From NCBI GenBank assembly GCA_963702895.1, contig OY969767.1:1312001-1376000 (forward strand): 64,000 nt of DNA, in the 5' to 3' direction. Each line of letters begins with the position of its first letter. The stretch's first letter is position 1. Shown here in pieces: positions 15,001-18,000 of the stretch. A program made the position numbers. This DNA is from an uncultured Elusimicrobia bacterium (GTDB taxonomy: Bacteria; Elusimicrobiota; Elusimicrobia; 2-01-FULL-59-12).

Positions 15001-18000
15001 GGGTGTGCGGTGTGACGGGTTTATGAATTCCTGCGTGGAGGGCCGCCTGCCGGATCAAGCGCCAGAATTGCACCGTGCTCATCGGCCGCTTGCGGTCGGA
15101 AACAAAGAGACTTTTGACAGAGGCTGGCGTCGACGGACGCTTTTCAAGGTAGCCACGAACCGCAAGGCGCGCGCGTTCGCCAATGGGGACGACGCGTTCC
15201 TTCCCCCCTTTGCCGTAAACCCTCACGCATCCCACCTGGAGATCGATCGCGTCCAGTCGCATTTGGGTGAGTTCGCTCACGCGAAGTCCCGCCGCATACA
15301 TGAGCTCGAGCATCGCACGGAGTCGGATAGACCTGTCCTTGGAGAGGCCCACGCCGGTGAAAAGCCGTGAGATTTCCGGAACCGTCAGATACCGCGGGAG
15401 ACGCTCGGCTATTCTGGGACCACGAAGCAGAAGTGAGGGGTCCTGGGTGATGAGTTCTTCGCGAAAGAGAAAGCGATAGAAAGTCCTCAGGCTGGCCATG
15501 TAGCGGGCGATCGATGAAGCTTGAATGCCGTTCGATTTTCTCGACCAGAGGTATTCCGTCAAGTCCTCTCGGAGCACGGTGAGCGGATCTTTGGAATGCT
15601 CGGCGAGATACCGAAGATAGGTCAAAAGATCAATCCGGTAATTGATCAGAGTCTTCGGGGAAACATCTCGTTCCACGCGAAGGTGCTGAAGAAAAGACTC
15701 GAGCAGCTCGGAGCTTTTCTTTGGCACCTCAGCGCTCACGCGCGCTGACTCAGGAGCGTTTCGCGGCAACGGCGTCCTTCAATTCAGTTTTCGCTGGCAA
15801 GCTCGTCTCGGGGCTGAAATATTTTTTACGTATCTCAGATTCCAGCCGATCGGCCGCTTCGGGGTGCTCTTTGAAGTAGGCGCGGGCATTGTCACGTCCT
15901 TGCCCGATGCGCTCGTCCTTCCAGAGGTACCACGAACCCGTCTTTTCCAGGATCGCGGCCTCGACACCAGCGTCGACGAGGCACCCTTCGCGCGAGACGC
16001 CTTCCCCATAGTACATCTCAAACTCTGCCTGCCGGAAAGGAGGCGCCATCTTATTCTTCACGACTTTGACCCGTATGCGGCTGCCCACCACAACATCGCC
16101 GGACTTCACGGCTTCGATACGACGAATATCGAGCCTCAGTGAAGAATAAAACTTGAGCGCCAAGCCGCCGGGCGTGGTTTCAGGATTGCCAAACATGACG
16201 CCAATCTTGTGCCGAAGCTGGTTGATGAAGACGAGCGTCGTTTTGGATTTCGACAGTGTCCCGGTGAGCTTTCGCAGGGCCTGAGACATGAGTCGGGCCT
16301 GCATGCCCATCTGCTGATCGCCCATTTCCCCTTCGATTTCAGAGCGGGGCACAAGGGCCGCGACCGAATCGATGACGATGATATCGACGGCACCGGAGCG
16401 GATGAGCGTCTCGGTGATCTCCAGCGCCTGCTCGCCAGAATCGGGCTGAGAGATGAGAAGGTTATCGATATCAACCCCGAGGCGTTTGGCATAGGCCGGG
16501 TCCATGGCATGTTCCGCGTCAATAAAGGCCGCGACGCCACCCTGTTTTTGGGCGTTGGCGACCATATGGAGCGTGAGCGTCGTTTTGCCTGACGATTCCG
16601 GGCCATAAATCTCGACGACTCGACCACGGGGGACGCCGCCAATCCCAATCGCGATATCCAAAGGAAGCGCGCCTGTGGGGATGGCCTCAATTTGCACTTT
16701 GGTTGATTTATCACCCAGTTTCATGATCGCTTCCTTCCCAAAGTCCTTCTCGATCTGAATGAGTGCGAGCTCTAAAGCCTTCATACGTTCATCTTTTGCC
16801 ATGGGTGGCTCCTTTTAGAATGATGTGACCCCCTACTCCTTAGATGCAAAATCGCGAATTTTATTCATTCCGACTGTCTGGCGACATCGCCAGCGGAAGG
16901 CATCGCGCCACTCGAAAGCTTGGCGACCGACCCATCCTCCCCGAAGAAGCGAATGACCTTCATCTCTCCGATCTTTTCTTCGGCATTGCCGATCACAAGC
17001 CCCGTGGTCGGGTCTTTAATGACCTTGCCCGCGCGCAAGACGATCAACTTTTGGCCAAGGGGTACGCCGGACTCGCTGCCCGCGTTGAGATAGATACTCT
17101 CACCGTCCACATCGGCCACACGGCAGCTCCAGGGCTTCTTTTCGACCTGAGCCACAATGTTGTTCATGAATTTCACAATCGCCGCGCGAAGGGCCTCCTG
17201 CTCCAGAGACTCATCGTAGCCCGCGCGTGTGCCGAGGCCCAGCACACCGCCTGATTTTTTGACCCCAAGGCCGGAGCCGGAATCCGCGTAAAGCACTTGA
17301 CCTGTCTCGGCGTCCACAACACGGATATCGACGGTGGCCTTGACGATCTGGCGTTTGGACTGAGCGATCAGATATTCCGAGCCTTCGGTGGATGTCCCAA
17401 ACTCTGAAATCGCTCCGGTCACGATGGCGTTGAGTCCTAGGATCTTTCCGACCCGGGCCGCGGTGGCCGGGTCAATGGCGCCCGTCATGGCCAGTTTTTG
17501 CTCGCCCATGATGGTGTTGAGCTTGTCGCGCTCGACCACGATAAATTTGCCAGATTTGGCGAGTTCCGTAATGAGGATGTCGGAGGTGGCGCTGCCTAAG
17601 CGGTTTTCGCCGTATTTCGTTTTGTTTTGGAAATCGAGCACCCCCACCCGCCTTTTAAGCCCCACCATTCCCTTCGGCTTTTCAATCGTCATGGTTTCTT
17701 TTTGTTTCACTTTGGTGCTGGGCGCGCACCCAGGATAAACGGCCACCAGACTCACCAGCATCAGACTGAAGTATCGCGAGTTTCTCATAATCATCTCCTT
17801 CACGTTAGGGTAACGTCTCGAGCAGCCTTCGCACGGCAATGCTCGATTCGAACTGGAGCGGAACATGGAGCGTTTTCTCCAGTGCTTGGACTCCGAGCTG
17901 CGTAAAAAAATGGTCCTGGGCTTCCTTGTTACTCGTGGCAATATTGAGCGTCATCCAAGTCCGCTCAGACTCCCAAAGCTTTTCTCCGCTGGTCGCGTTC

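What a model noticed while it worked through the whole genome (the two positions that open the first line are those of the whole stretch)
16834..16868. A 37-site bipartite promoter (TGAATA-N14-GCATCTAAGG) defines a competence-like regulon that selfish small genes have hij [...]
A -35/-10-like motif with one fixed spacing precedes recA, comEC, yraN-comM-dprA, comF (through a four-helix-bundle gene) and a Flp/Tad pilus locus (through an ORF6N gene), which is the DNA-uptake gene set. About 25 further copies sit in front of scattered toxin-antitoxin, four-helix-bundle, ORF6N and DUF1016 genes, which would be switched on during competence.
Evidence so far: GAATA-N15-CATCTAA occurs 33 times, and 0 times at N13, 14, 16 or 17; the PWM gives 37 sites above 22 bits, 0 above 18 in a shuffle, 35 of them upstream of a co-oriented gene within about 200 bp. 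Sites include 1328834 (recA), 2415004 (comEC), 687822 (yraN-comM-dprA), 1185531 (before comF), 149291 (before Flp/Tad). Found in 5 of 11 order mates (20, 5, 4, 4, 1 copies; reversed-pattern control 0; call 170), where it precedes recA, comEC, yraN-comM, comF and the Flp pilin directly, and again ORF6N, four-helix-bundle and BrnT genes. At background level elsewhere in the phylum. Paper searches 174, 175 showed nothing on it.
(Added by a program. Inside this text positions count along the whole contig: contig position 1,312,001 is position 1 of the stretch shown here. "Call 12" and the like, gene names such as g00115 and contig names such as C1 are that model's own, and its searches are not shown. 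The text may have been shortened before it was handed on; [...] marks where a part breaks off. The agent that wrote the report below was given it as the finding of a first reader that could run no searches.)

Follow-up and report, generated by a model that had tools for sequence, protein, structure and literature searches.

The report
Kinase-switched sigma factor's competence promoter
In one order of uncultured Elusimicrobiota bacteria, a repeated promoter sits in front of DNA-uptake and recombination genes and dozens of small toxin-antitoxin-type genes, and it is most likely read by an unusual sigma factor that carries its own phosphorylation switch and is encoded beside a sensor kinase.

Summary
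The motif is real: 33 exact copies at one spacing; 36-37 PWM sites, none in shuffles. Its core, GAATAW-N16/17-TCTAA, is an ECF-sigma-type promoter enriched in all 11 order mates and at background elsewhere in the phylum. It precedes recA, yraN/comM, comEC, comF, a Flp-type pilin and once radC, often leaderless. Its operon starts with the motif in 7 of 7 readable copies. Its range matches the motif's. It alone among this genome's five ECFs has the Met171 that predicts GAAT, and its contact residues partly track genome-specific promoter variants. Most sites front mobile small genes (toxin-antitoxin, four-helix bundle, ORF6N, DUF1016, RAYT); whether that is selfish hijack or host defence is open. 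There is no transcript or biochemical evidence, and comEA was not found. No earlier scan note on other DNA was found. Verdict: new variant of the ComX/SigH competence-sigma regulon.

The parts
16840..16866 (-). Promoter motif before recA: -35 GAATA (16866-16862, then an A/T tract), 17-nt spacer, -10 TCTAA (16844-16840); inferred +1 near 16834. The proposed cognate sigma (contig 2625500-2626459, -), its kinase (2626461-2627927, -) and their operon's site (2631762-2631788, -) lie outside the window
   Evidence: conserved before recA in 8 of 9 family mates with an assembled 5' end; +1 is inferred from leaderless starts; sigma operon:
15750..16802 (-). recA
   Evidence: Pfam PF00154 E 9.5e-140
16865..17788 (-). 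CsgG-family gene upstream of recA; its TGA stop overlaps the -35 element
11303..11329 (+). Second copy of the motif, after lexA and before a four-helix-bundle gene
   Evidence: 36.5 bits
11349..11702 (+). Four-helix-bundle (23S rRNA IVP family) gene behind the second site
   Evidence: PF05635 E 2.2e-22
10552..11178 (+). lexA; has no motif site in front of it
   Evidence: PF00717 and PF01726; no site

Best explanation
The motif is the promoter of a dedicated ECF-type sigma factor (-35 GAATAW plus A/T tract, 17-18 nt spacer, -10 TCTAA, start about 5-8 nt later). The sigma is the REC-ECF fusion encoded near the end of an operon for a PorV-like barrel, an Ig-like protein, a TPR protein and a membrane histidine kinase. 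SHOWN: the motif and its fixed spacing, its position before the same core genes across the order, its position before the sigma's own operon, the matching ranges, and intact REC and sigma residues. INFERRED: an envelope signal activates the kinase; the kinase phosphorylates Asp53 of the REC domain; this frees the attached sigma to bind RNA polymerase, with no anti-sigma needed; positive feedback through its own promoter then switches on recA, comM-dprA, comEC, comF and the Flp/Tad pilus, i.e. a competence state. Small mobile genes have accumulated behind copies of this promoter, either by landing behind an existing one (comF, Flp) or together with a copy, so they are co-induced.
For: Core motif in 11 of 11 order mates: 8-33 sites at N17 in the 10 family mates (controls 0-4); 14 sites at N18 in G011 (control 0). 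In 301 phylum genomes a stricter pattern gives 21-31 sites in G000, G004 and G007 and at most 4 in the other 298; the same three are the only ones with the REC-sigma. Orthologues occur in 11 of 11 order mates and are not evident in 29 other class genomes. The motif heads the operon in 7 of 7 main copies whose 5' end is assembled. Closest solved relatives are E. coli sigmaE and AlgU, with a near-identical -10 loop; ECF02 promoters are GAACTTT/GTCT. Met at position 171 goes with T at -31 and Ser172 with G at -34 (PMC1540707 passages). Met171 is found in 106 of 113 parsed homologues, while the other four ECFs of this genome have K or R. Only G005 has Asn84, and 13 of its 15 sites have G before TCTAA, against at most 7 of 29 elsewhere. 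The two genomes with mostly G at -35 (26/31, 13/18) both have Arg176. 28 of the 55 sites with a nearby ATG have it 3-9 nt after TCTAA. REC Asp53, Thr83 and Lys105 are invariant in 15 of 15 sequences.
Against: No transcript or biochemical data. All carriers are one clade, so the co-occurrence is one evolutionary event, and the 7 of 7 sites are shared by descent. Two Arg176 genomes lack the -35 G (G001 0/29, G009 1/19), and the residue-base matches were noticed after the fact. comEA was not found with PF12836 in G003, G004 or G007; the G000 hit is a GspK-like gene and the G010 hit has no site. recA lacks the site in G005; comEC lacks an exact site in 4 of 10 order mates (G004 has a one-mismatch copy). 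radC carried a site in only 1 of the 6 relatives whose sites I read, and no radC was found in G000 by tblastn. About 29 of the 37 G000 sites front accessory genes rather than uptake genes. One search scored only about 7 candidates per genome.
Confidence: 0.62

Rival explanations
1. Same promoter and same REC-sigma, but the regulon is a broader envelope-stress or DNA-entry defence response, not competence for transformation.
For: Sites precede a Spy/CpxP-like gene in 4 genomes, recQ, a PLD nuclease, a DNA methylase, NotI- and XhoI-like restriction enzymes and many toxin-antitoxin pairs. The operon encodes envelope proteins. comEA was not found.
Against: The conserved core (comEC, comF, comM, dprA, recA, pilin) is the transformation set; dprA, radC and recA are late competence genes in pneumococcus (PMC6560143 passages). 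lexA has no site, and no other classic SOS gene appeared among the first genes behind sites.
Confidence: 0.2
2. Another sigma factor reads the promoter (the sigmaE-like ECF at contig 1127958, the SigR-like ECF at 855102, or the group-2 sigma at 908447), and the REC-sigma operon is only a target.
For: The ECF at 1127958 is even closer to RpoE. The group-2 sigma is present in nearly all order mates.
Against: No orthologue of 1127958 was found in G002, G003, G004, G005 or G009 (best 35-41% identity). 855102 was not found in G006, G007 or G011 among the loci fetched. Both have K or R at 171. The group-2 sigma also occurs at 63-69% identity in motif-less G013 and G018.
Confidence: 0.08
3. The motif is a recombination or attachment site for gene cassettes rather than a promoter.
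For: Neighbouring sites share 55-110 nt blocks that end just after TCTAA in G000 (16 of 630 pairs), G006 (8 of 78) and G001 (one pair, each copy behind an inverted repeat flanking a RAYT).
Against: There is no such sharing in G005, G007, G009 or G010 (0 of 677 pairs). The motif is not palindromic, is single and fixed before core genes, and is followed by leaderless starts.
Confidence: 0.04
4. The REC-sigma is a PhyR-like decoy (anti-anti-sigma) that frees a separate sigma.
For: The nearest ESM Atlas clusters are PhyR-type, at a weak 0.90.
Against: Domain order is reversed (REC first); no PhyR Pfam hit at E<=0.001; DNA-contact and acidic core-binding residues are kept; the kinase is HisKA-type.
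Confidence: 0.03

Closest known systems
Competence sigma factors: streptococcal ComX (sigmaX) and staphylococcal SigH
   Same: A dedicated alternative sigma drives recA, dprA, radC and uptake genes from one promoter motif (PMC6560143 passages; PMC3486894 abstract).
   Different: There the two-component system acts upstream and controls sigma synthesis; here the receiver is fused to the sigma. In the ComX motif GAATA lies just before the start; here it is the -35 element of a two-block ECF promoter.
E. coli sigmaE / AlgU (ECF02) and the GGAATAAA-reading groups ECF26 and ECF207
   Same: sigma2/sigma4 sequence and -10 loop; TCTAA-type -10 and 17-nt spacing; a -35 GAATAAA as in ECF26/ECF207 (PMC7826278 supplement passages).
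   Different: No anti-sigma gene beside it; an N-terminal REC domain and a histidine kinase instead; Met171 giving GAAT; DNA-uptake targets; ECF26/207 pair that -35 with GTT/GTC.
PhyR-NepR-EcfG (ECF15) partner switch
   Same: A histidine kinase signal reaches an ECF regulon through a protein joining REC and sigma-like domains.
   Different: PhyR is a decoy that titrates an anti-sigma (PMC8999054 passages); here the fusion keeps promoter-contact residues and has the opposite domain order.
Haemophilus influenzae toxTA under the CRP-S competence promoter
   Same: A horizontally acquired toxin-antitoxin pair inside a competence regulon, with selfish versus useful left open (PMC6957337 abstract and Discussion).
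   Different: That is one operon; here about 29 accessory units of at least eight families occur in one genome, and the pattern repeats across the order.

Membership tests
ECF (group 4) sigma factor promoter system | Two-block promoter with 16-18 nt spacer and a start a few nt after the -10 | tested here: met
   fixed N17/N18 spacing; leaderless ATGs 3-9 nt downstream; the start itself was not mapped
ECF (group 4) sigma factor promoter system | Sigma with sigma2 and sigma4 but no sigma3 | tested here: met
   PF04542 and PF08281, no PF04539; TIGR02937 above cut-off
ECF (group 4) sigma factor promoter system | Autoregulation (motif before its own operon) | tested here: met
   7 of 7 readable main copies; 5 order mates not assessable because contigs end inside the operon
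ECF (group 4) sigma factor promoter system | Sigma-dependent transcription from the motif | not testable with these tools
   needs a reporter or in vitro transcription
ECF02 (RpoE/AlgU) | GAACTT -35 with Arg171; NCBIfam RpoE cut-off | tested here: not met
   GAATAW and Met171; TIGR02939 111.6 bits against a cut-off of 236
PhyR anti-anti-sigma | N-terminal sigma-like decoy domain (PF22029/PF22233) and C-terminal REC | tested here: not met
   REC is N-terminal; no PhyR Pfam hit
Two-component response regulator | Phospho-acceptor Asp, Thr/Ser and Lys, with an adjacent histidine kinase | tested here: met
   D53, T83, K105 invariant in 15 of 15; REC fold; kinase with an H-box directly upstream; phosphotransfer not tested
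Competence regulon (ComX/SigH/CRP-S type) | Common site before comEC, comF, dprA/comM, recA and pilus genes | tested here: met
Competence regulon (ComX/SigH/CRP-S type) | DNA receptor comEA in the regulon | tested here: inconclusive
   not found with PF12836 in 3 of 5 genomes; the other hits are not convincing or carry no site
Competence regulon (ComX/SigH/CRP-S type) | Induction gives DNA uptake and transformation | not testable with these tools
   uncultured lineage
LexA/SOS box | Palindrome or direct repeat before lexA, recA and repair genes | tested here: not met
   asymmetric, orientation-fixed motif; no site before lexA

The most novel reading that the evidence does not exclude
A one-step 'kinase-to-sigma' switch: a functional ECF sigma factor is turned on directly by aspartate phosphorylation of its own receiver domain, behind a trans-envelope sensor (PorV-like barrel, TPR protein, histidine kinase). 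It acts as the competence master regulator of a whole bacterial order. Its promoter has become the shared landing and expression signal for a circulating pool of small mobile genes, and conjugative or integrative elements carry re-specified copies of the entire switch.
Probability: 0.35. Interest if true: 0.88.

Novelty: new variant of a known kind. Interest (0 to 1): 0.75.

Why it matters
How competence is controlled is known in only a few phyla. This predicts a complete circuit (sensor, sigma factor, promoter, targets) in an uncultured order, and the sigma-promoter pair can be tested in E. coli without culturing the host. A receiver domain fused to a working ECF sigma would add a mode of sigma control that I did not find in the ECF classification or reviews I searched. 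It also ties widespread orphan small-gene families (four-helix bundle, ORF6N, DUF1016, RAYT, BrnT) to one inducing condition, which makes the question of selfish versus defensive role testable.

Tried and rejected
The divergent 274-aa sigma (contig 1932738) as cognate factor: no close orthologue in the relatives (best 38% over the full length). The group-2 sigma and the four plain ECFs: see rivals. A resemblance to the B. subtilis SigG consensus is recalled from memory and was not pursued, because the family-wide core lacks the CA. The metagenome scan for independent copies of the operon gave 5 true homologue loci of 80; four lack the operon's 5' end and L415 duplicates the G006 C14 element, so no new test was gained. 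No RNA holder was listed for the recA region. Rfam found nothing in window 10000-18000. The sigma70 promoter and terminator scan of the operon was at chance level. Raised counts in G015, G023 and G025 with the loose N18 pattern (14-17 against controls of 4-9) fell to 1-4 with the stricter pattern, so they were treated as background. Promoter-block copying as a general mechanism was rejected: seen in 3 genomes, absent in 4, and marginal in G004 (2 of 276 pairs). No complex prediction was run. Paper searches listed nothing on this motif, on Elusimicrobiota competence control or on a REC-fused functional ECF; I saw listings only. A response-regulator domain census that might list such fusions is not held, and the ECF classification supplement was cut when stored.

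Full report
Observation. At window 16840-16866 on the minus strand lies GAATA-N15-CATCTAA, 37 nt before the recA start; a second copy at 11303-11329 precedes a four-helix-bundle gene after lexA. In the 2.72-Mb genome the pattern occurs 33 times at this spacing, once at N11 and never at the other ten spacings tried. A PWM made from these sites finds 36 above 30 bits and 37 above 15, against none above 12 in three shuffles. The RecA neighbours name the phylum as Elusimicrobiota. Of the 37 sites, 7 front conserved or host-type genes (recA, yraN-comM-dprA, comEC, a Spy/CpxP-like gene, a PorV-like operon, a secreted protein related to that operon, a 53-aa protein). 29 front accessory genes (four-helix bundle, DUF1016, ORF6N, BrnT-like, HigB-like, PIN, a RAYT fragment), two of them with comF or the Flp/Tad locus behind. 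One has no ORF.

The true motif is shorter and order-wide. Reading upstream of recA in relatives showed that the CA is genome-specific. GAATAW-N16-TCTAA occurs 8-33 times in each of 10 family mates (reversed-pattern controls 0-4). The eleventh order mate, G011, mostly uses a spacer one base longer (14 sites, control 0). With a stricter pattern, 3 of 301 phylum genomes have 21-31 sites and the other 298 have at most 4. The site precedes recA in 8 of 9 family mates with an assembled 5' end and in 0 of 9 other class genomes. It precedes yraN or comM in 10 of 11 order mates, and the eleventh has a TCTAT variant just after yraN. It precedes comEC exactly in 6 of 10, plus a one-mismatch copy in G004. 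In G004, G005, G007, G009 and G010 it lies directly before comF; in G004 and G007 directly before the Flp-type pilin; once each before radC and recQ. Among 120 distinct sites, 55 have an ATG within 30 nt, and 28 of these lie 3-9 nt after TCTAA, too close for a ribosome-binding site; a second peak at 13-21 nt leaves room for one. That is the geometry of a -10 element with a start 5-8 nt downstream (inference).

The sigma factor. The genome has eight sigma70-family genes. One, outside the window at contig 2625500-2626459 (minus strand), is a 319-aa fusion of a receiver domain and an ECF sigma. It lies in a run of overlapping or abutting genes: PorV-like barrel, Ig-like protein with a T9SS-type C-terminus, TPR protein, membrane histidine kinase (2626461-2627927), REC-sigma. 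The motif (contig 2631762-2631788 in G000) heads this run in all 7 main copies whose 5' end is assembled (G000, G003, G004, G005, G006, G007, G010); five order mates could not be assessed. Orthologues occur in 11 of 11 order mates and were not evident in 29 other class genomes. A profile search of 301 phylum genomes found it only in the three motif-rich genomes, although only about 7 candidates were scored per genome. The other ECFs are patchy among motif-bearing genomes and the group-2 sigma extends to motif-less ones. Among 1.84 billion representatives only six full-length clusters appear in the best 150, and the three sampled proteins with a taxon name are Elusimicrobiota.

The recognition code fits. 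The nearest solved structures are sigmaE and AlgU, with the -10 loop nearly identical. Lane and Darst (PMC1540707, passages) report that Ser172 goes with G at -34, Arg176 contacts the -35 G, and Met at 171 goes with T or weak C/T at -31. Todor et al. (PMC7776599, abstract, part 2 of 7 and passages) show that 171, 172 and Asn84 set -31, -34 and -12/-13. The REC-sigma has Met-Ser at 171-172 (106 of 113 parsed among 120 homologues), which predicts GAAT; the four other ECFs of this genome have Lys or Arg. Within the order, only G005 has Asn84, and 13 of its 15 sites have G before TCTAA, against 7/29, 7/36 and at most 1 elsewhere. G004 and G011 have mostly G at -35 (26/31, 13/18) and both have Arg176; none of the eight genomes without Arg176 does (highest 6/36); but G001 and G009 have Arg176 without the G (0/29, 1/19) (totals). 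These matches are post hoc and few. The REC domain keeps Asp53, Thr83 and Lys105 in 15 of 15 sequences and models as a normal receiver followed by sigma2 and sigma4 (pLDDT 83.6). Acidic residues of the core-binding motif are kept (PMC8999054 passages).

The accessory genes. In G000 most paralogues found by tblastn have a site within 270 nt upstream: four-helix bundle 7 of 10, DUF1016 8 of 9, BrnT-like 5 of 6, HigB-like 3 of 3, PIN 2 of 3; the queries came from site-bearing genes, which favours this result. Units of site plus small gene sit at lineage-specific places: at two loci of G004 and G007 the flanking genes are about 140 and under 10 nt apart in G000, with no site. At comF and at the pilin, G000 has an extra gene between promoter and core gene, and comF remains intact. 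In G000, G006 and G001 neighbouring promoters share 55-110 nt blocks that end just after TCTAA and front different genes; four other genomes show none of this. Because accessory promoters carry each host's own variant, their expression from this promoter appears to be under selection, but sequence alone cannot say whose benefit it serves. Restriction and methylase genes also carry sites. The H. influenzae toxTA case leaves the same question open (PMC6957337, abstract and Discussion). Three further copies of the sensor-sigma operon lie beside integrases or a relaxase and VirB-like genes, with Leu, Trp or Lys at 171; the two with a readable 5' end have only altered motif-like sequences.

Comparison and novelty. 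It works like ComX or staphylococcal SigH, a dedicated sigma for late competence genes (PMC6560143 passages; PMC3486894 abstract), but it is an ECF with a fused receiver. It fails the ECF02 and PhyR membership tests. I found no REC-fused functional ECF in term searches of the main text and truncated supplement of the ECF classification (PMC7826278) or of two reviews (PMC8103513, PMC8999054). I found nothing on mobile genes using competence promoters in the passages returned from a review of competence and mobile elements (PMC12378983), and nothing relevant in the listings of searches. Response-regulator domain censuses that I recall were not available, so the architecture may have been catalogued.

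Verdict. The promoter is real (about 0.93), the REC-sigma is its likely reader (about 0.85), and competence is the likeliest function (about 0.75). Limits: no expression data, one clade, comEA not found, and the hijack reading undecided. New variant of a known kind; interest 0.75.

Noticed in passing
L531 9756-16968 (G006 C4), L323 (G006 C14), L315 (G008 C71): Extra copies of the whole PorV-like/TPR/kinase/REC-sigma operon lie next to integrases, radC, a relaxase and VirB-like genes. Their sigma recognition helices differ, and two have altered motif-like sequences upstream: mobile elements may carry re-specified versions of the switch.
   Followed up: partly
L178 410-525 and 1350-1465 (G001): A RAYT gene is flanked by two inverted-repeat (REPIN-like) elements, each directly followed by a copy of the promoter; the duplication ends at the inferred +1.
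   Followed up: partly
L539 and L538 (G006 C49, C5): Arrays of toxin-antitoxin and other small genes, each headed by a near-identical promoter block (five sites in 4 kb; four in 4.3 kb).
   Followed up: partly
window 8324-9433 (-): Stand-alone metallo-beta-lactamase-fold gene near lexA. Family ComECs are about 460 aa, against 738 aa in G011, so this may be the detached ComEC nuclease domain; it has no motif site.
   Followed up: no
L112 (contig about 1429974) and L105 (contig about 2630800): rpoD and the PorV-like gene each have a frameshift in G000, probably assembly errors.
   Followed up: no
L102 (contig 2035265-2039538): Tandem triplication of a site plus DUF1016 gene with a 1551-bp period; two copies are truncated.
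   Followed up: no
L090 3734-3816; also L359/L360 and L412/L413: Back-to-back divergent pairs of the motif in G000, G007 and G009 (and G001, G011), one arm facing an accessory gene.
   Followed up: no
L104 1370-1528, L083 923-1099, L353 1285-1497: Three small proteins without a Pfam family (53, 59 and 71 aa) lie behind the motif, the first two in 3-4 genomes; the 53-aa one resembles unnamed phage clusters in the ESM Atlas.
   Followed up: partly
L543 6530-6668 (G005): recA of G005 lacks the site and has a palindromic insert upstream instead.
   Followed up: no
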